A stretch of 64,000 nt of DNA from Escherichia coli (GTDB lineage: Bacteria > Pseudomonadota > Gammaproteobacteria > Enterobacterales > Enterobacteriaceae). The stretch is from NCBI RefSeq assembly GCF_002854065.1, contig NZ_CP024147.1; one strand, written 5' to 3'. Below are positions 23,220 through 42,682 of this stretch, one piece after another; position 1 is the first letter of the stretch, and each line of letters starts with the position of its first letter. Below the pieces are notes generated by a model. That model was given only the letters and a program-made list of their open reading frames with translations, had not been told where the DNA came from and did not search any database. A program made the translations under genes and the position numbers.

Positions 23220-24818
23220 ATGCGTAAAACAGTGGCTTTTGGCTTTGTCGGAACGGTGCTGGATTATGCCGGGCGCGGCAGTCAGCGCTGGTCGAAATGG
23301 CGTCCGACGCTTTGTTTATGCCAGCAAGAATCGTTGGTCATCGATCGACTGGAATTATTGCATGACGCCCGCTCGCGCTCGCTATTTGAAACGCTTAAAC
23401 GCGATATCGCCAGCGTTTCGCCAGAAACAGAAGTGGTGAGCGTTGAGATTGAACTGCATAACCCGTGGGATTTCGAAGAGGTTTACGCCTGCCTGCATGA
23501 TTTCGCCCGTGGTTACGAGTTTCAACCAGAAAAAGAAGACTATTTAATTCACATCACCACCGGCACCCACGTCGCGCAGATTTGCTGGTTTCTGCTGGCG
23601 GAAGCGCGTTATCTACCCGCCCGGTTGATACAATCTTCACCTCCGCGCAAAAAAGAACAACCGCGCGGCTCAGGTGAAGTGACGATTATCGATCTCGATC
23701 TAAGCCGTTATAACGCCATCGCCAGCCGCTTTGCCGAGGAACGCCAGCAAACGCTTGATTTTCTTAAGTCCGGCATTGCCACGCGTAACCCCCACTTCAA
23801 CCGCATGATTGAGCAGGTTGAAAAAGTGGCGATTAAATCCCGCGCACCGATCCTGCTTAACGGCCCGACCGGTGCGGGTAAGTCGTTTCTGGCACGACGC
23901 ATTTTCGAATTAAAACAGGCGCGGCATCAGTTTAGCGGCGCGTTTGTGGAAGTGAACTGCGCCACCTTGCGTGGCGATACCGCCATGTCGACGCTGTTTG
24001 GTCATGTAAAAGGCGCGTTTACCGGGGCGCGGGAATCCCGTGAAGGATTATTACGTAGCGCCAACGGTGGAATGTTGTTTCTTGATGAGATTGGCGAACT
24101 GGGCGCAGACGAACAGGCAATGCTGCTGAAAGCCATTGAAGAGAAAAACTTTTACCCGTTTGGCAGCGATCGCCAGGTGAGCAGTGATTTTCAGCTCATC
24201 GCCGGAACGGTGCGCGATTTACGCCAGCTGGTTGCCGATGGCAAATTCCGCGAAGATCTATACGCGCGGATCAATCTCTGGACCTTCACCCTGCCGGGGC
24301 TACGCCAGCGTCAGGAAGATATTGAACCTAACCTGGATTATGAAGTGGAGCGCCACGCTTCACTCACCGGCGACAGCGTGCGTTTTAACACCGAAGCGCG
24401 GCGCGCCTGGCTGGCCTTTGCGACATCTCCCCAGGCAACATGGCGCGGTAACTTTCGCGAGCTTTCTGCCAGCGTCACGCGAATGGCAACCTTTGCCTCT
24501 AGCGGACGCATTACTCTGGACGTGGTTGAAGATGAGATAAACCGTCTGCGCTATAACTGGCAGGAGAGCCGCCCCTCCGCGCTTACGGCGTTGCTGGGCG
24601 CAGAGGCAGAAAACATCGATCTCTTCGACCGTATGCAACTGGAACACGTTATCGCTATCTGCCGCCAGGCAAAGTCGCTTTCCGCAGCCGGACGCCAGCT
24701 TTTTGACGTTTCGCGCCAGGGCAAAGCCAGCGTCAATGACGCGGATCGGCTACGCAAATACCTGGCGCGTTTTGGTCTGACGTGGGAAGCATTGCAGGAT
24801 CAGCACAGCTCCAGTTGA
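23220..24818 (+). CDS. rtcR: Sigma-54-dependent activator RtcR (532 aa)
   Basis: ORF 23052..24818; start set at [20 protein letters not shown]; AAA+ motifs GPTGAGKS and GAFTGA; 3' end overlaps glpR by 19 bp. Confidence 0.93.
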
Positions 24819-25558
24819 ATATGGTGGTCCGTCAGCACCTGCATCACGCTTACTGGCGGCGGGGCGTCGGTGTAGACGGCATCTACCATGCTGATGCTGC
24901 CCATATTGACCATCGCGTTACGGCCAAATTTGGAGTGATCGACAACCAGCATAACGTGGCGCGAGTTCTCAATAATGGCGCGTTTGGTGCGAACTTCGTG
25001 GTAATCGAACTCCAGCAGCGAGCCGTCGCTATCGATGCCGCTTATCCCCAGAATGCCGAAATCAAGGCGGAACTGGGAGATAAAATCGAGCGTCGCTTCG
25101 CCAATGATCCCGCCATCGCGGCTGCGTAATTCGCCACCGGCGAGAATAATGCGGAAATCTTCTTTTACCATCAACGTGTTAGCAACATTGAGATTGTTGG
25201 TGACAATGCGCAAATTGCTGTGATTGAGCAGCGCGTGCGCCACCGCTTCCGGCGTGGTGCCGATATCGATAAACAGCGTCGAGCCGTTGGGGATTTGCTC
25301 CGCCACTTTACGGGCAATCCTCTCTTTTTCTTCGGTCTGGGTGGCTTTACGATCGTGCCACGGCGTGTTAACCGAACTGGAAGGCAGCGCCGCACCGCCA
25401 TGATGGCGCAGGATCAGGTTTTGCTCTGCCAGTTCGTTGAGGTCGCGGCGAATAGTCTGCGGGCTGACGGAGAAGTGCTCCACCAGCTCCTCGGTACTGA
25501 CATAACCCTGCTGTTTAACCAGTTCGATAATACCGTTGTGACGTTGTGTTTGTTTCAT
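24800..25558 (-). CDS. glpR: DeoR-family glycerol-3-phosphate regulon repressor GlpR (252 aa)
   Basis: ORF 24800..25609; start set at MKQTQRHNGIIELVKQQGYVSTEELVEHF. Confidence 0.94.
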   Translation of the reverse strand: MKQTQRHNGIIELVKQQGYVSTEELVEHFSVSPQTIRRDLNELAEQNLILRHHGGAALPSSSVNTPWHDRKATQTEEKERIARKVAEQIPNGSTLFIDIGTTPEAVAHALLNHSNLRIVTNNLNVANTLMVKEDFRIILAGGELRSRDGGIIGEATLDFISQFRLDFGILGISGIDSDGSLLEFDYHEVRTKRAIIENSRHVMLVVDHSKFGRNAMVNMGSISMVDAVYTDAPPPVSVMQVLTDHHIQLELC

Positions 25559-25574: not shown

Positions 25575-26417
<843 letters not shown>

Positions 26418-26449: not shown

Positions 26450-26854
<405 letters not shown>

Positions 26855-26912
26855 TTATACATATCACTCTAAAATGTTTTTTCAATGTTACCTAAAGCGC
26901 AATTCTTTGCTA

Positions 26913-26935
26913 ATATGTTCGATAACGAACATTTA
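26913..26935. promoter_or_regulatory. GlpR operator palindrome in the glpD promoter
   Basis: atATGTTCGATAACGAACATtta, a perfect 18-bp palindrome matching the GlpR half-site WATGTTCGWT; overlaps a TAATAT -10-like hexamer about 35 bp upstream of glpD. Confidence 0.75.
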
Positions 26936-26965
26936 TGAGCTTTAACGAAAGTGAATGAGGGCAGC

Positions 26966-28471
26966 ATGGAAACCAAAGATCTGATTGTGATAGGTGGCGG
27001 CATCAATGGTGCTGGTATCGCGGCAGACGCCGCTGGACGCGGTTTATCCGTGCTGATGCTGGAGGCGCAGGATCTCGCTTGCGCGACCTCTTCCGCCAGT
27101 TCAAAACTCATCCACGGTGGCCTGCGCTACCTTGAGCACTATGAATTCCGCCTGGTCAGCGAGGCGCTGGCTGAACGTGAAGTGCTGCTGAAAATGGCCC
27201 CGCATATCGCCTTCCCGATGCGTTTTCGCCTGCCACATCGTCCGCATCTGCGCCCGGCGTGGATGATTCGCATTGGTCTGTTTATGTACGATCATCTGGG
27301 TAAACGCACCAGCCTGCCGGGATCAACTGGTTTGCGTTTTGGCGCAAACTCAGTGTTAAAACCGGAAATTAAGCGCGGATTCGAATATTCTGACTGTTGG
27401 GTAGACGACGCCCGTCTGGTACTCGCCAACGCCCAGATGGTGGTGCGTAAAGGCGGCGAAGTGCTTACTCGTACTCGTGCTACTTCTGCTCGTCGCGAAA
27501 ACGGCCTGTGGATTGTGGAAGCGGAAGATATCGATACCGGCAAAAAATATAGCTGGCAAGCGCGCGGCCTGGTTAACGCCACCGGCCCGTGGGTGAAACA
27601 GTTCTTCGACGACGGGATGCATCTGCCTTCGCCTTATGGCATTCGCCTGATCAAAGGTAGCCATATTGTGGTGCCGCGCGTGCATACCCAAAAGCAGGCC
27701 TACATTCTGCAAAACGAAGATAAACGCATTGTGTTCGTGATCCCGTGGATGGACGAGTTTTCCATCATCGGCACCACCGATGTGGAATACAAAGGTGATC
27801 CGAAAGCAGTGAAGATTGAAGAGAGTGAAATCAATTACCTGCTGAAAGTGTATAACACGCACTTTAAAAAGCAGTTAAGCCGTGACGATATCGTCTGGAC
27901 CTACTCCGGTGTGCGTCCGCTGTGTGATGATGAGTCCGACTCGCCGCAGGCTATTACCCGTGATTACACCCTTGATATCCATGATGAAAACGGCAAAGCA
28001 CCGCTGCTGTCGGTATTCGGCGGTAAGTTGACCACCTACCGCAAACTGGCGGAACATGCGCTGGAAAAACTGACGCCGTATTATCAGGGCATTGGCCCGG
28101 CATGGACGAAAGAGAGCGTGCTGCCGGGTGGTGCCATTGAAGGCGACCGCGACGATTACGCAGCTCGTCTGCGCCGTCGCTATCCATTCCTGACTGAATC
28201 ACTGGCGCGTCATTACGCACGCACTTACGGCAGCAACAGCGAGCTGCTACTCGGCAATGCGGGGGCGATAAGCGACCTCGGGGAGGATTTCGGTCATGAG
28301 TTCTACGAAGCGGAACTGAAATACCTGGTGGATCACGAATGGGTCCGCCGCACCGACGATGCCCTGTGGCGTCGCACAAAACAAGGCATGTGGCTGAATG
28401 CGGATCAACAATCTCGTGTGAGTCAGTGGCTGGTGGAATATACGCAGCAGAAGTTGTCGCTGGCGTCGTAA
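26966..28471 (+). CDS. glpD: Aerobic glycerol-3-phosphate dehydrogenase GlpD (501 aa)
   Basis: ORF 26951..28471; start set at METKDLIVIGGGINGAGIAADAAGRG (FAD-binding GXGXXG). Confidence 0.96.
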   Translation: METKDLIVIGGGINGAGIAADAAGRGLSVLMLEAQDLACATSSASSKLIHGGLRYLEHYEFRLVSEALAEREVLLKMAPHIAFPMRFRLPHRPHLRPAWMIRIGLFMYDHLGKRTSLPGSTGLRFGANSVLKPEIKRGFEYSDCWVDDARLVLANAQMVVRKGGEVLTRTRATSARRENGLWIVEAEDIDTGKKYSWQARGLVNATGPWVKQFFDDGMHLPSPYGIRLIKGSHIVVPRVHTQKQAYILQNEDKRIVFVIPWMDEFSIIGTTDVEYKGDPKAVKIEESEINYLLKVYNTHFKKQLSRDDIVWTYSGVRPLCDDESDSPQAITRDYTLDIHDENGKAPLLSVFGGKLTTYRKLAEHALEKLTPYYQGIGPAWTKESVLPGGAIEGDRDDYAARLRRRYPFLTESLARHYARTYGSNSELLLGNAGAISDLGEDFGHEFYEAELKYLVDHEWVRRTDDALWRRTKQGMWLNADQQSRVSQWLVEYTQQKLSLAS

Positions 28472-28684: not shown

Positions 28685-29287
28685 TTACCGCAAAGCCCAC
28701 GCCATCATACCCAACGTAACAAAACTCAGGCACGTTCCCCACTCACTCCACTTCCGTATCTGGCTTCTATTTTTGCTACGCCACTGGCAATAATATCCCA
28801 ACGCAAAACCAAGCTGTGCGCTTATTGGACCGATAAAATCCGTCCACGGCTGAGGCCAAAATGGCGAAAAATTCAGGGGTAGCCAGACAACAAGCAGAAA
28901 GAAATTGCGGATACTTTCCAGCAACGCAATTTTCGCTGGCGCGATGTAAAAAATGATATTCCAGAGGATCAACCATAAATAGACCGGTGCGAATACCAAC
29001 CAACAATGGAGCCTGCTTTTCAATTCAGATTGAGTTCTACGAGTAAATTGCCAACCAACGCAACACATTACACAGAAGAAAAGCGCATATTCAGCCGATA
29101 ACCAAAGTTGTAATTGCAGAAGTGAAATACGCCTGATCATGAGCGGGATTGAGAACAGCATTTCCCCCAGAAAACTCAGCGTGATAATACAAGCAGCCAG
29201 CGCAACCACCATCGGCCACACCAACAACGGCACAATAACAAAGCCGAGAAATAACGGATAAATATAAAGTCTGATTATATTCATCAT
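28685..29287 (-). CDS. Polytopic inner-membrane protein, unknown function (200 aa); third gene of the PstS-like operon
   Basis: Hydrophobic ORF MMNIIRLYIYPLFLGFVIVPLLVWPMVVALAACIITLSF... with about 5-6 predicted TM segments; ATG overlaps the upstream gene's stop by 1 nt. Confidence 0.6.
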   Translation of the reverse strand: MMNIIRLYIYPLFLGFVIVPLLVWPMVVALAACIITLSFLGEMLFSIPLMIRRISLLQLQLWLSAEYALFFCVMCCVGWQFTRRTQSELKSRLHCWLVFAPVYLWLILWNIIFYIAPAKIALLESIRNFFLLVVWLPLNFSPFWPQPWTDFIGPISAQLGFALGYYCQWRSKNRSQIRKWSEWGTCLSFVTLGMMAWALR

Positions 29288-30279
29288 TATTGTCCTGATG
29301 ATTCGGGGGATGCTTCATACAGCAGCACATACCCCACATCCTCTACCAACTGTTGCCCCTGCTGACTTATAAACCAGTCAACAAATTTCTGCGTTTCCGG
29401 CGTGGGATTTTCACGCGTCACCATATAGGCATCCACAATGTATGGATAAGTGCCGTTGCGGATATTTTCCTCGGTAGGCGCAACGCCATTTATAGCCAAA
29501 AGTTTAATCTGCTTGCGCATTTTGAGCATATTGTCATTCATACGAGTGACGTAATAGTGGAAGGTGTACCCAATGGAAGATGGCGTGTTTTGATAGTCGG
29601 CAACTTCAGTAATTAAACCGCCCATAAGATCAATCACAGTAGATTTTTTAGCTGGCAGCATTGGGGTGTCTTGCATAACCAATCCCTTCATAATCGTTTG
29701 GCTTCCAGAATCTTCAGGGCGCTGCCAGACTTTTATATGTTCGTCACTACCACCTACTTTATTCCAGCGGCTAGTTTTGCTGCTAAAAATATCTTTAACC
29801 TGGTGCTCAGAGAGAGAATTTACCGGGTTATTAATATCAACGATAAAGACAAAGGCTTCGCGGGCGAAAGCGGTATATTTCAGTTTAACACCCGCTTCTT
29901 CTGCACGTTTTTTCTGTCCTTCCGACGGTTGTGCAACAAAAATAACCGTCGCGGAACCTTTAATCAGACTATCGTAGGCTTCAGCTGTTCGGGTTTGCTG
30001 CAAACCATACGCCTGCCAGGCCAGCGAGGTTCGATCCTTATCTTTTGGCTCGGGTACTAATTTATAATACGCGGAGGCATACAGCGGGTATAAGGCTGTA
30101 GCGCCGTACACTCTCGGCCATCTTGACCAATCATCGCTGTAACGTAATGCAGGTTGCCCCCGCAGAGACGTCAGTCCATGGCTCTCTTCTTCCCTGACGC
30201 TGTTATAGTACCCTTCCCGGTCGACACATCCCGCCAGTAACGCCGTGCCTAATAGTAAAACACCGGTGAATTTATTCAT
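29287..30279 (-). CDS. PstS-like (PBP_like_2 fold) periplasmic-binding lipoprotein (330 aa)
   Basis: ORF 29287..30342; start set at MNKFTGVLLLGTALLAGC (lipobox LAGC); PstS-like motifs GATALYPLY, RPEDSGSQT, SIGYTFHYY. Confidence 0.7.
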   Translation of the reverse strand: MNKFTGVLLLGTALLAGCVDREGYYNSVREEESHGLTSLRGQPALRYSDDWSRWPRVYGATALYPLYASAYYKLVPEPKDKDRTSLAWQAYGLQQTRTAEAYDSLIKGSATVIFVAQPSEGQKKRAEEAGVKLKYTAFAREAFVFIVDINNPVNSLSEHQVKDIFSSKTSRWNKVGGSDEHIKVWQRPEDSGSQTIMKGLVMQDTPMLPAKKSTVIDLMGGLITEVADYQNTPSSIGYTFHYYVTRMNDNMLKMRKQIKLLAINGVAPTEENIRNGTYPYIVDAYMVTRENPTPETQKFVDWFISQQGQQLVEDVGYVLLYEASPESSGQ

Positions 30280-30304
30280 CTCGCTGATTCCTTTCTCTCG
30301 AGCG

Positions 30305-31822
30305 TTATTCCATTGTTGGATACAGCGGCACATATCCCACATCTTCTACCAGACTCTGCCCCTGCGGCGTTAAAAACCATTCGACCAGTTTTTGTGTTTC
30401 TGACGTTGTATTTTCCCTCGTTACCATAAAGGCATCGACGATATAGGGATATTTGCCGTTGCGAATATTTTCCGCAGTCGGTGTAATACCGTTAATCGCT
30501 AGCAGTTTTATATTTTTATCAGCATTCATTTGCGTCGCGTAATAGCGGAAGGTATAGCCTATTGCGTTGTTTGTATTACGGTATTCGGCAACGACTTTAA
30601 TCATTCCCTCCATCACGCTTGCCACTTCCATTTCCTGCGGCGAGATCATGCGGACATTTTTCATGACCTGTGATTGCATCACTGTCTGGCTGCCAGAGTC
30701 TTCCGGGCGCTGCCAGGTCTGGATCTCCTGATCGTTACCGCCAACAGTACGCCAGTTGGTAATTGCACCACTGAAAATGTCACGCACCTGTTGTTCAGTC
30801 AGGGAATTAACCGGATTATCCGCATTGACGATGAAAACGAATGCTTCACGGGCAAAGGGGGTGTACAGCAAAGTGACACCAGATTCCTTTGCACGTTTTT
30901 TTTGCCCACCGGAAGGTTGCGCCACGAAAATAATATCAGCATCGCCCTTAACGATTTTGTTATATGCTTCTGGCGTACGAGAGTTTTCCAGATAATCCCA
31001 AACGTGAAAATCCTCTGGTATTACACTTAATGCATAAAATGCAGAAGCATAAATTGGGTACGCAGCCGTGGCGCCATCGATTCGCGGCCAGTTTTGCCTA
31101 AACTGAATTTGCGGTTTGCCACGCAGCGGCGTCAGTCGATTATTGAGTTTATCGGGTTGCCAGGCCCAGATATCAATATTTTCGCGTACACCGACACCAG
31201 GATTGAGCTGTTTATATAAATAACCCTGATAACCAGCGACAAAACCAAGCATGAGAAGGATAAACAGGAGGGAATTACGGCAACGTAGCCCGGATGTACC
31301 GGTTAAAGGATGTCTGGTTGGCCGGCCGTACCCCAGCGAAAAACTGATATGCGCGCCAACGGGTATAATGACTATCCACCAGTACTCACCTCCGACTACT
31401 GAGACTAACAAAACGCCCAGCCAGGGGAGCATAAGATCAGCCAACCAACCCGATCCCATCTGGTGAAATTGATAATCTGCCAGATGCAGCGCGATTATCC
31501 AGCCAACCAGGATTAATAAAGCGGGTACTAAAAAAAGACATTGTCGCCAGACGGCTATTTCTCTTTTTTCTGGTGCACTATCGCCTGCCCATACTCGCCC
31601 CGAGAAAAATAGCATTAATGCGCCCAGCGCCAGCATAAAAATGTTGAGCAGAAGGTAAATTGTTGGCGTGATAAGGATATTACAAACTTCAATAATACCG
31701 GCAAGTCCGACACCCAGCATAGCAACAACCGCCGCCAAAAATTGCGTCAGTATGGGGATGCCGAAAAAAGTCATTACCAGCGAGGACAAAATCCATTTTC
31801 TGTTTTGCATTATTCTTTCCAT
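30305..31822 (-). CDS. Fusion protein: N-terminal polytopic membrane domain (about 190 aa) plus C-terminal PstS-like binding domain (505 aa)
   Basis: N-terminus hydrophobic (MERIMQNRKWILSSLVMTFFGIPILTQFLAAVVAML...); C-terminal half paralogous to the lipoprotein (GATAAYPIY, RPEDSGSQT, AIGYTFRYY); alternative start at 31810; TATAAT on minus strand at 31840..31845. Confidence 0.65.
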   Translation of the reverse strand: MERIMQNRKWILSSLVMTFFGIPILTQFLAAVVAMLGVGLAGIIEVCNILITPTIYLLLNIFMLALGALMLFFSGRVWAGDSAPEKREIAVWRQCLFLVPALLILVGWIIALHLADYQFHQMGSGWLADLMLPWLGVLLVSVVGGEYWWIVIIPVGAHISFSLGYGRPTRHPLTGTSGLRCRNSLLFILLMLGFVAGYQGYLYKQLNPGVGVRENIDIWAWQPDKLNNRLTPLRGKPQIQFRQNWPRIDGATAAYPIYASAFYALSVIPEDFHVWDYLENSRTPEAYNKIVKGDADIIFVAQPSGGQKKRAKESGVTLLYTPFAREAFVFIVNADNPVNSLTEQQVRDIFSGAITNWRTVGGNDQEIQTWQRPEDSGSQTVMQSQVMKNVRMISPQEMEVASVMEGMIKVVAEYRNTNNAIGYTFRYYATQMNADKNIKLLAINGITPTAENIRNGKYPYIVDAFMVTRENTTSETQKLVEWFLTPQGQSLVEDVGYVPLYPTME

Positions 31823-41578: not shown

Positions 41579-42682
41579 TTACGCCAGTTGACGAAGCATC
41601 CGACGCAGCGGCTCCGCGGCCCCCCACAGCAGCTGGTCGCCCACGGTAAAGGCTGACAGGAACTCTGGTCCCATATTCAGCTTACGCAGGCGGCCTACCG
41701 GCGTGGTCAGCGTGCCGGTAACGGCAGCTGGGGTTAGCTCACGCATAGTGATTTCCCGATCGTTCGGAACGACTTTCGCCCACGGATTGTGTGCAGCCAG
41801 CAGTTCTTCCACGGTCGGAATAGACACATCTTTTTTCAATTTAATAGTGAATGCCTGGCTGTGGCAGCGCAATGCCCCGACACGCACACATAAACCATCT
41901 ACCGGAATTACGGAAGATGTGTTGAGGATCTTGTTGGTTTCCGCCTGCCCTTTCCACTCTTCGCGGCTCTGACCGTTATCGAGCTGTTTGTCGATCCACG
42001 GAATCAGGCTACCCGCCAGCGGCACGCCAAAGTTATCCACCGGCAGCTCACCGCTACGGGTTAAGGTTGTGACTTTGCGTTCGATATCGAGAATAGCAGA
42101 GGACGGGGTCGCGAGTTCATCTGCTACATGGCCATACAGATGGCCCATCTGGGTTAATAACTCACGCATATGTCGCGCACCACCGCCGGAAGCGGCCTGG
42201 TAGGTTGCAACGGACACCCAATCAACAAGATCATTGGCGAATAAACCACCCAACGACATCAACATCAGGCTTACGGTACAGTTACCGCCAACAAAAGTCC
42301 TGATGCCATTATTTAATCCGTCGGTAATGACGTCCTGATTGACGGGGTCAAGAATGATGATGGCGTCATCTTTCATGCGCAGAGACGATGCTGCGTCAAT
42401 CCAGTAACCCTGCCATCCGCTTTCACGAAGCTTTGGATAGATTTCGTTGGTATAATCGCCGCCCTGACAGGTCACAATGATATCGAGGGCCTTTAGCGCC
42501 TCCAGATCAAAGGCATCCTGAAGTGTGCCAGTGGTTCCGCCAAAAGACGGCGCAGCCTGACCAAGCTGAGAAGTAGAAAAAAAGACAGGGCGAATGGCGT
42601 CGAAGTCGCGCTCTTCAACCATGCGTTGCATGAGAACGGAGCCGACCATACCGCGCCAGCCGATAAAACCAACATTTTTCAT
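41579..42682 (-). CDS. asd: Aspartate-semialdehyde dehydrogenase Asd (367 aa)
   Basis: ORF 41579..42742; start set at [24 protein letters not shown]. Confidence 0.95.

What the first reader, a model, noticed from the sequence alone, without database searches (positions are those of the whole stretch)
26913..26935. Perfect 18-bp GlpR operator palindrome overlapping the glpD promoter
ATGTTCGATAACGAACAT is a perfect inverted repeat of the GlpR half-site and overlaps a TAATAT -10-like hexamer immediately upstream of glpD, in the region shared with divergent glpEGR.
Basis: partly seen in the sequence, partly recalled or inferred. Interest (0 to 1): 0.25.

Follow-up and report, generated by a model that had tools for sequence, protein, structure and literature searches.

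The report
Known GlpR operator at glpD promoter

Summary
The 18-mer ATGTTCGATAACGAACAT lies at 26915-26932, 34 nt before the glpD ATG (26966), in the 189-bp glpE/glpD divergent region of an E. coli chromosome. It is not a perfect palindrome. Eight of nine pairs are complementary (A:A at positions 8/11), giving 7-bp arms around ATAA. Near-palindromes of this quality are no commoner than chance (11 observed, 7.9±3 expected).

The identity of the site is what stands out. The 20-mer 26914-26933 matches the GlpR consensus WATGTTCGWTAWCGAACATW at 20/20. It is the only site in 64 kb within three mismatches (0.01 expected). The intergenic region is identical to K-12 MG1655 except for one base outside the site.

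The 20-mer overlaps a conserved extended -10 (TG-C-TAATAT, 26908-26916). A weaker, in-register second site follows at 26934-26953 (14/20). An intact glpR lies 1.4 kb away.

The -10/operator overlap recurs upstream of glpD in Citrobacter, Salmonella and Photobacterium, and 91% of 5,426 E. coli genomes carry it exactly.

Verdict: this is the known glpD operator OD1, repressing by promoter occlusion. Already known, low interest.

I could not read the primary footprinting papers, and the exact transcription start remains ambiguous (about 26924 versus 26946).

The parts
26914..26933 (.). Primary GlpR operator (OD1 of glpD), 20 bp: TATGTTCGATAACGAACATT. It contains the 18-mer 26915-26932, with 7-bp arms ATGTTCG/CGAACAT and spacer ATAA.
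   Evidence: 20/20 to WATGTTCGWTAWCGAACATW and unique in the window. Identical to K-12. Invariant in sampled E. coli alleles. Present upstream of glpD in Citrobacter, Salmonella arizonae/diarizonae and Photobacterium.
26934..26953 (.). Adjacent weaker GlpR site in 20-bp register (probable OD2): TATGAGCTTTAACGAAAGTG
   Evidence: 14/20 to the consensus, where sites of 14 or more occur about once per 4 kb. The block TGAGCTWTAACGAAAG is conserved across Escherichia, Citrobacter and Salmonella. Tandem OD1/OD2 is recalled from Yang & Larson 1996; I could not read that paper.
26908..26916 (+). Probable glpD extended -10 element: TG-C-TAATAT (hexamer 26911-26916)
   Evidence: T1, A2 and T6 of the hexamer and the upstream TG are conserved: TAATAT/TATTAT/TACTAT in enterics and cTATTAT in Photobacterium. 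The generic promoter scan found nothing because no -35 hexamer reaches 4/6. The implied start is about 26923-26925.
26853..26868 (.). CRP-like site TGTTATACATATCACT, centred at 26860.5
   Evidence: Read directly from the sequence against TGTGA-N6-TCACA. It is the most conserved upstream block in the cross-species alignment. Assigning it to CRP, and the -63.5 position, rest on my memory.
26874..26916 (+). ArcA-P direct-repeat region reported for K-12 (ATGTTTTTTCAATGTTACCTAAAGCGCGATTCTTTGCTAATAT); it abuts or overlaps the -10 and the 5' edge of OD1
   Evidence: Supplementary tables of PMC3798270 report a ChIP peak at glpD/glpE and list this 43-bp site. ATGTT repeats at 26851, 26873 and 26884 are spaced 22 and 11 bp apart.
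26966..28471 (+). [quoted passage not shown]
   Evidence: RefSeq annotation of the identical strain; Pfam DAO plus DAO_C.
24800..25558 (-). glpR, the cognate DeoR-family repressor (252 aa, intact)
   Evidence: Pfam HTH_DeoR (2.4e-26) and DeoRC (6.8e-56). Annotated as a DeoR/GlpR-family regulator. It is a 758-bp pseudogene in MG1655.
26450..26776 (-). glpE (rhodanese), first gene of the divergent glpEGR operon
   Evidence: The main glpEGR promoter is reported not to be GlpR-regulated (PMC2593051).
27277..27389 (.). Candidate intragenic GlpR-like sites inside glpD: 27277-27296 (13/20), 27329-27348 (11/20) and 27370-27389 (13/20). A further one lies at 27703-27722 (13/20). These are possible distal operators for looping.
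   Evidence: Consensus scan. The three 13/20 sites coincide with the three longest invariant nucleotide runs in a 12-species glpD codon alignment. 27329 and 27370 are 41 bp apart, the spacing I recall for OD3/OD4. The recalled coordinates could not be reconciled, so this is suggestive only.

Best explanation
The palindrome is the high-affinity operator (OD1) through which the glycerol-3-phosphate repressor GlpR shuts off glpD. GlpR is a DeoR-family protein encoded 1.4 kb away. It binds the two half-sites TGTTCG/CGAACA of the 20-bp site 26914-26933, and probably binds cooperatively to the weaker in-register neighbour at 26934-26953. This ~40-bp stretch covers the -10 hexamer and the start of transcription, so a bound repressor keeps RNA polymerase off the promoter. 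When sn-glycerol-3-phosphate accumulates it binds GlpR, lowers its affinity for DNA, and glpD is transcribed. Distal sites inside glpD may stabilise repression by looping. Shown here: the sequence, its 20/20 motif match, its uniqueness in the window, its overlap with a conserved -10, its identity to K-12, the presence of an intact glpR, and conservation across species. Inferred or taken from the literature: physical binding, cooperativity, the inducer response and looping.
For: Gene context is glpR-glpG-glpE <-> glpD. The intergenic region is identical to K-12 MG1655 except at 26901. The site is a 20/20 consensus match and the only one within 3 mismatches in 64 kb, with 0.01 expected. Only 0.17 sites of 16/20 or better are expected per shuffled window. 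The consensus was validated two ways. The other K-12 GlpR-controlled regions, glpFK and glpT/glpA, carry phased clusters of 13-15/20 matches. Two of those matches are exactly the RegulonDB glpTQ sites printed in PMC7804116. The exact 18-mer class occurs in 48 loci of 298 Gb. Thirteen of these are the glpE-glpD intergenic region of Escherichia, Citrobacter and Salmonella, and two lie beside glpR/glpT/glpD in Photobacterium. In the enteric alignment, OD1, the -10, OD2 and the CRP-like block are conserved while the glpE-proximal half diverges. Photobacterium keeps the same TATTAT/operator overlap. The 30-mer TGCTAATAT+OD1 is exact over at least 28 nt in 4926 of 5426 E. coli genomes, and sampled alleles vary in OD2 or the spacer, not in OD1. 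The literature names glpD as a GlpR target with multiple operators (PMC7567609; PMC4117983).
Against: No binding or expression data were generated here, and the primary footprinting papers could not be opened. The consensus and the OD1/OD2 naming therefore rest partly on memory. The transcription start is ambiguous. Promoter geometry and conservation point to about 26924, which puts OD1 at -10..+10. A table in PMC3798270 places the ArcA site ending at 26916 at -30, which implies a start at 26946 and OD1 at -32..-13. Either way the operator pair overlaps the core promoter. The cross-species set was selected for exact matches, so it cannot measure how often OD1 diverges; Salmonella enterica, Klebsiella and Enterobacter were not hit.
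Confidence: 0.95

Rival explanations
1. The palindrome is a site for a different regulator, for instance a Crp/Fnr-family protein reading TGTTC-N6-GAACA, or ArcA-P, whose repeats abut it. On this reading GlpR is not the main reader.
For: The same 18-mer class sits immediately upstream of Crp/Fnr-family genes in four betaproteobacterial loci: L026, L029, L035 and L049. So the word itself is not exclusive to GlpR. A reported ArcA site ends at 26916.
Against: Against the E. coli CRP consensus TGTGA-N6-TCACA the site matches only 6/10 core positions (read from the sequence). In enterics and Photobacterium the word always accompanies glpD and glpR. Related weaker copies cluster in the other glp control regions. 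ArcA boxes are direct repeats of TGTTA at 11-bp spacing, not this inverted repeat.
Confidence: 0.03
2. It is a chance near-palindrome with no function of its own.
For: 18-bp windows with at least 8/9 complementary pairs are as frequent as expected by chance: 11 observed against 7.9±3.0.
Against: It is a 20/20 match to a specific motif with 0.01 expected. It is invariant across sampled E. coli alleles while neighbouring bases vary. It is conserved upstream of glpD to Vibrionaceae.
Confidence: 0.01
3. It acts as a nucleic-acid hairpin: an RNA stem in the glpD leader, a terminator, or a DNA cruciform.
For: The 7-bp arms could pair.
Against: No terminator-like site was found and no Rfam family at E<=1. 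The likely start at about 26924 falls inside the palindrome, so the mRNA would carry only one arm. The predicted leader is no more structured than shuffles (z = +1.2). In other species W-position changes keep the protein-site consensus rather than improve pairing.
Confidence: 0.01

Closest known systems
glpD operator OD1 (with OD2) of E. coli K-12 (Ye & Larson 1988; Yang & Larson 1996)
   Same: Sequence identical over the -10, OD1 and OD2. Same genes on both sides and the same 189-bp intergenic length.
   Different: One substitution at 26901 (A here, G in K-12 and in almost all E. coli), outside the operators. glpR is intact here, whereas MG1655 carries a frameshifted pseudogene.
GlpR operators of glpFK (O1-O4) and glpTQ/glpACB in E. 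coli
   Same: Same 20-bp motif and 20/40-bp phasing. One operator overlaps the -10: O4 of glpFK (PMC4117983).
   Different: Those sites are degenerate (13-15/20). The glpD site is the only 20/20 copy among the regions examined.
DeoR operator (16-bp palindrome TGTTAGAA/TTCTAACA; recalled from memory) and multi-operator looping repressors such as LacI and DeoR
   Same: Same repressor family, TGTT...AACA outer half-site bases, and repression by promoter occlusion assisted by distant operators.
   Different: Different inner half-site bases and a different inducer. Looping for glpD is taken from the literature and was not tested here. A synthetic-promoter study saw no looping-type synergy for GlpR sites (PMC7804116).

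Membership tests
GlpR (DeoR-family) operator of the E. coli glp regulon | Match to the 20-bp consensus WATGTTCGWTAWCGAACATW | tested here: met
   20/20 at 26914-26933 and unique within 3 mismatches. The consensus was recalled from memory, but it recovers RegulonDB glpTQ sites in register.
GlpR (DeoR-family) operator of the E. coli glp regulon | Lies in, and overlaps, the core promoter of a glp regulon gene | tested here: met
   34 nt upstream of the glpD ATG. Overlaps the conserved TG-n-TAATAT. The exact start is ambiguous, 26924 versus 26946.
GlpR (DeoR-family) operator of the E. coli glp regulon | Identity with the experimentally footprinted K-12 glpD operator | tested here: inconclusive
   The region is identical to K-12 MG1655, and glpD is cited as footprinted. 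The footprint coordinates themselves could not be read.
GlpR (DeoR-family) operator of the E. coli glp regulon | Accompanied by further operators: a tandem neighbour in 20-bp register and distal sites | tested here: met
   A conserved 14/20 site lies directly adjacent at 26934-26953. Distal intragenic candidates are only suggestive.
GlpR (DeoR-family) operator of the E. coli glp regulon | Cognate repressor gene present and intact | tested here: met
   252-aa ORF at 24800-25558 (-) with HTH_DeoR and DeoRC domains.
GlpR (DeoR-family) operator of the E. coli glp regulon | Bound by GlpR and released by sn-glycerol-3-phosphate | not testable with these tools
   Requires EMSA, footprinting or reporter assays.
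CRP/FNR-type 5-N6-5 site | Match to TGTGA-N6-TCACA (CRP) core | tested here: not met
   TGTTC/GAACA gives 6 of 10 core positions (read). A better CRP-like site lies at 26853-26868.
Intrinsic terminator or structured RNA element | GC-rich stem followed by a T run, or a match to an RNA family | tested here: not met
   No terminator-like sites, no Rfam hits, and a leader fold z-score of +1.2.

The most novel reading that the evidence does not exclude
The GlpR regulon around this locus may have more operators than the four described for glpD. Two observations point that way. First, a 16/20 consensus match at 25576-25595 sits 18-37 nt upstream of the glpR start codon and is conserved, with two rare CGA codons, across Escherichia, Citrobacter and Salmonella. 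It could give GlpR a previously unreported hold on its own synthesis from the promoters inside glpG. Second, three or four intragenic glpD sites, rather than two, coincide with the most conserved nucleotide runs. OD1 itself would remain the known operator.
Probability: 0.12. Interest if true: 0.25.

Novelty: already known. Interest (0 to 1): 0.05.

Why it matters
It matters little as a discovery. The site is the classic glpD operator of the glp regulon, characterised in the 1980s and 1990s. Its value here is as a positive control: a tool-free reader correctly recognised a real regulatory site from sequence alone. The check also quantifies three things. The site is the single best GlpR motif in 64 kb. 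It is essentially invariant in E. coli. And its overlap with the -10 is conserved from Enterobacteriaceae to Vibrionaceae.

Tried and rejected
1. Primary papers. I tried to open Ye & Larson 1988, Yang & Larson 1996 and Zhao et al. 1994 by PubMed and PMC id. None is held.
2. Literature search for the operator string. It returned only unrelated primer hits.
3. Generic sigma-70 scan. No hits, because the -35 is weak. I relied on conservation of TG-n-TAWTAT instead.
4. Internal operators OD3/OD4 at the coordinates I recalled (568-587 and 609-628). No numbering origin (start at 26924, start at 26946, or the ATG) puts a plausible site there. Only an arbitrary origin at 26762 maps them onto the conserved pair 27329/27370. 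I left this as unresolved candidates.
5. Published transcription-start data. Nothing was retrievable from the supplements of PMC3415461, PMC7567609, PMC4161252 or PMC4288677.
6. RNA-level readings. Rfam and folding of the leader were both negative.
7. Palindromicity as evidence. Rejected, because such near-palindromes occur at the chance rate.
8. The 32 non-enteric, non-Photobacterium loci carrying the exact word. No glp genes lie nearby, apart from a glpK about 2.7 kb from the site in Desulfosporosinus L048, and the count is of the order of the ~17 expected by chance. The exception is a betaproteobacterial subset next to Crp/Fnr-family genes.

Full report
**What is in the sequence.** The window is an E. 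coli chromosome. A 1-kb stretch around the finding is 100% identical to strain CUWW06 and is present in 5,425 of 5,426 complete E. coli genomes. The local genes are rtcB, rtcR, glpR, glpG and glpE on one side and glpD on the other. Pfam confirms their identities:
- glpR, 24800-25558 (-): a DeoR-type HTH plus a DeoR sensor domain.
- glpG: a rhomboid protease.
- glpE, 26450-26776 (-): a rhodanese.
- glpD, 26966-28471 (+): an FAD-dependent glycerophosphate dehydrogenase.

The 18-mer ATGTTCGATAACGAACAT sits at 26915-26932, so the finding's coordinates pad it by 2-3 nt. It is not a perfect palindrome. Pair 8/11 is A:A, leaving 8 of 9 pairs, or 7-bp perfect arms ATGTTCG/CGAACAT around ATAA. TAATAT is at 26911-26916 and overlaps the 18-mer by two bases. 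The glpD ATG follows 34 nt after the palindrome. The glpE ATG is at 26776 on the other strand, so the site lies in a 189-bp divergent control region.

**Is it more than chance?** As a palindrome, no. The window holds 11 stretches of 18 bp with at least 8/9 complementary pairs, against 7.9±3.0 in shuffles, and none is perfect. As a specific motif, yes.
- The 20-mer TATGTTCGATAACGAACATT (26914-26933) matches the GlpR consensus WATGTTCGWTAWCGAACATW at all 20 positions.
- It is the only site in 64 kb within three mismatches, where 0.01 is expected.
- Sites scoring 16/20 or better are expected 0.17 times per shuffled window.

I recalled the consensus from memory (Zhao et al. 1994), so I tested it independently. 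In K-12, the two other GlpR-controlled regions I fetched carry phased clusters of 13-15/20 matches: glpFK at spacings of 20 and 42 bp, and glpT/glpA at 40, 52 and 40 bp. Background matches of 14/20 or better occur only about once per 4 kb. Two of those hits are exactly the RegulonDB glpTQ GlpR sites printed in Supplementary Table 1 of PMC7804116, and they are in the same register.

**Identity with the characterised operator.** The whole intergenic region is identical to K-12 MG1655 except for A instead of G at 26901, which is outside the site. The glpD operators were defined in K-12. PMC7567609 lists glpD among the four operons known to be GlpR-regulated, each with 4-8 sites, citing Ye & Larson 1988 and Yang & Larson 1996. 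I could not open those papers. From memory, they describe tandem operators OD1 and OD2 covering the -10 element and about 30 bp downstream of the start, plus two operators inside glpD that enhance repression at a distance. The sequence fits this description. Directly after the perfect site, in 20-bp register, lies TATGAGCTTTAACGAAAGTG (26934-26953), a 14/20 match.

**Conservation.**
- *Across genomes.* An exact scan of 298 Gb of reference genomes for ATGTTCGWTAWCGAACAT found 48 loci. My own calculation for equal base frequencies gives about 17 expected by chance.
- *Next to glp genes.* Thirteen loci are the glpE-glpD intergenic region of Escherichia, Citrobacter and Salmonella arizonae/diarizonae. 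Two lie beside glpR/glpT/glpD in Photobacterium.
- *In the enteric alignment.* The conserved blocks are a CRP-like site (26853-26868), GATGTTACC, TTCTTTGCTAWTAT plus OD1, and OD2. The glpE-proximal half is unalignable. That set was selected for an exact OD1, so only the other blocks are unbiased evidence.
- *In Photobacterium.* The arrangement cTATTATGTTCGATATCGAACATaa recurs 44 nt before the glpD ATG, with the same overlap of -10 and operator.
- *Within E. coli.* The 30-mer TGCTAATAT+OD1 is exact over at least 28 nt in 4,926 of 5,426 genomes. Sampled variant alleles differ at 26893, 26901, 26935 or 26939, which fall in the spacer or OD2 and not in OD1. The one exception is noted under "Seen in passing".

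**Promoter geometry and a discrepancy.** The generic promoter scan found nothing, because no -35 hexamer reaches its threshold. TG-C-TAATAT (26908-26916) has the form of an extended -10. Its key positions (T1, A2, T6 and the upstream TG) are conserved as TAATAT, TATTAT or TACTAT. That predicts a start near 26924, which places OD1 at -10..+10, OD2 at +11..+30 and the CRP-like site at -63.5. All three agree with what I recall of the literature.

A supplementary table of PMC3798270 disagrees. It lists a three-repeat ArcA site equal to window 26874-26916 at "-72/-30", which implies a start at 26946. The hexamer that start would require (TATGAG) lacks the final T and is not conserved. I therefore favour about 26924, but I could not retrieve start-site data to settle it. 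Under either start the OD1-OD2 pair overlaps the core promoter, so the mechanism does not depend on the answer.

**Mechanism.** GlpR binds OD1 with high affinity, probably together with OD2, and occludes RNA polymerase at the glpD promoter. sn-Glycerol-3-phosphate releases it (general statements in PMC4117983, and PMC7567609). An intact glpR is present here, whereas MG1655 carries a 758-bp pseudogene. The divergent glpEGR main promoter is reported not to respond to GlpR (PMC2593051), so the operator serves glpD alone. Binding, cooperativity, the inducer response and looping were not tested here.

**Distal sites.** Inside glpD, the three best consensus matches are 27277-27296, 27370-27389 and 27703-27722, each 13/20. 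They coincide with the three longest invariant nucleotide runs in a 12-species codon alignment. The site at 27329-27348 (11/20) lies 41 bp before 27370, the spacing I recall for OD3/OD4. The coordinates I recalled (568-587 and 609-628) do not map to any plausible site from the start or from the ATG. The conserved codons are mostly two-fold degenerate, so this is only suggestive.

**Rivals.**
- *An RNA or DNA hairpin* is unsupported. There are no terminator-like sites, no Rfam match, and an unstructured leader, and the start probably lies inside the palindrome.
- *A different regulator* is unlikely here. The site matches the CRP core at only 6/10 positions. However, the same word lies upstream of Crp/Fnr-family genes in four betaproteobacterial loci, so assigning it to GlpR depends on context. 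That context is fully met in this window.

**Seen in passing.** One clinical isolate, 20AR1039, has OD1 altered by a substitution and a 1-bp deletion.

**Verdict.** The feature is the known glpD operator OD1, so it is already known and of low interest.

Noticed in passing
window 25576-25595: A 16/20 GlpR-consensus match (AATGCGCGAAAACGAAAATA on the minus strand) covers the last codons of glpG, 18-37 nt upstream of the glpR ATG. It is conserved across Escherichia, Citrobacter and Salmonella, including two rare CGA Arg codons. glpEGR's main promoter is reported not to be GlpR-regulated, but promoters inside glpG drive glpR, so this is a possible unrecognised autoregulatory site.
   Followed up: partly
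window 27277-27296, 27329-27348, 27370-27389, 27703-27722: GlpR-like sites inside glpD. The three 13/20 sites coincide with the three longest invariant nucleotide runs in a 12-species glpD alignment. That makes more candidates than the two internal operators I recall from the literature, and the recalled coordinates could not be reconciled.
   Followed up: partly
window 26874-26916 (and ATGTT repeats at 26851, 26873, 26884): A published ArcA three-direct-repeat site overlaps the -35/-10 region and abuts OD1. The '-72/-30' position given in PMC3798270 implies a start at 26946, which conflicts with the start near 26924 implied by the conserved extended -10.
   Followed up: partly
L054 (E. coli 20AR1039, urine isolate), equivalent to window 26921-26924: OD1 is altered to ATGTTCAAT-ACGAACAT (G>A plus a 1-bp deletion), the only OD1 variant seen. 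It could be an operator-constitutive allele or an assembly error.
   Followed up: no
window 26935, 26939, 26893, 26901: Natural E. coli polymorphisms hit OD2 (A>G at 26935; G>A at 26939, also the Salmonella arizonae state) and the promoter spacer. The window's A at 26901 is rare: only 6 genomes share the exact 96-mer 26870-26965.
   Followed up: partly
L026, L029, L035, L049 (betaproteobacterial contigs): The same 18-mer class (ATGTTCGWTAWCGAACAT) lies directly upstream of Crp/Fnr-family regulator genes, with no glp genes nearby. This looks like convergent use of a TGTTC-N6-GAACA palindrome by another transcription-factor family, perhaps for autoregulation.
   Followed up: partly
window 24800-25558: glpR is intact (252 aa) here, whereas K-12 MG1655 carries a 758-bp frameshifted pseudogene. 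GlpR control of the operator should therefore be functional in this strain.
   Followed up: yes
window 28685-30342 and beyond: Downstream of glpD this strain carries a 200-aa ORF with no NCBIfam family match and a PstS-family substrate-binding protein gene. The identical strain CUWW06 adds a PstS-family pseudogene and IS1 there. K-12 has only the small yzgL before glgP.
   Followed up: partly
window 42076-42095: Another 16/20 GlpR-consensus match (TGCGTTCGATATCGAGAATA) lies inside asd. Together with the glpG site this makes two extra sites of 16/20 or better, where 0.17 sites at that score are expected in total per shuffled window. No contextual reason for GlpR control was found.
   Followed up: no
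L008 2704-2721 (Photobacterium sp.): A fully symmetric version, ATGTTCGATATCGAACAT, overlapping TATTAT lies 44 nt upstream of glpD. It is followed by an extra CGAACAT half-site, and glpR lies immediately upstream in the same orientation.
   Followed up: partly
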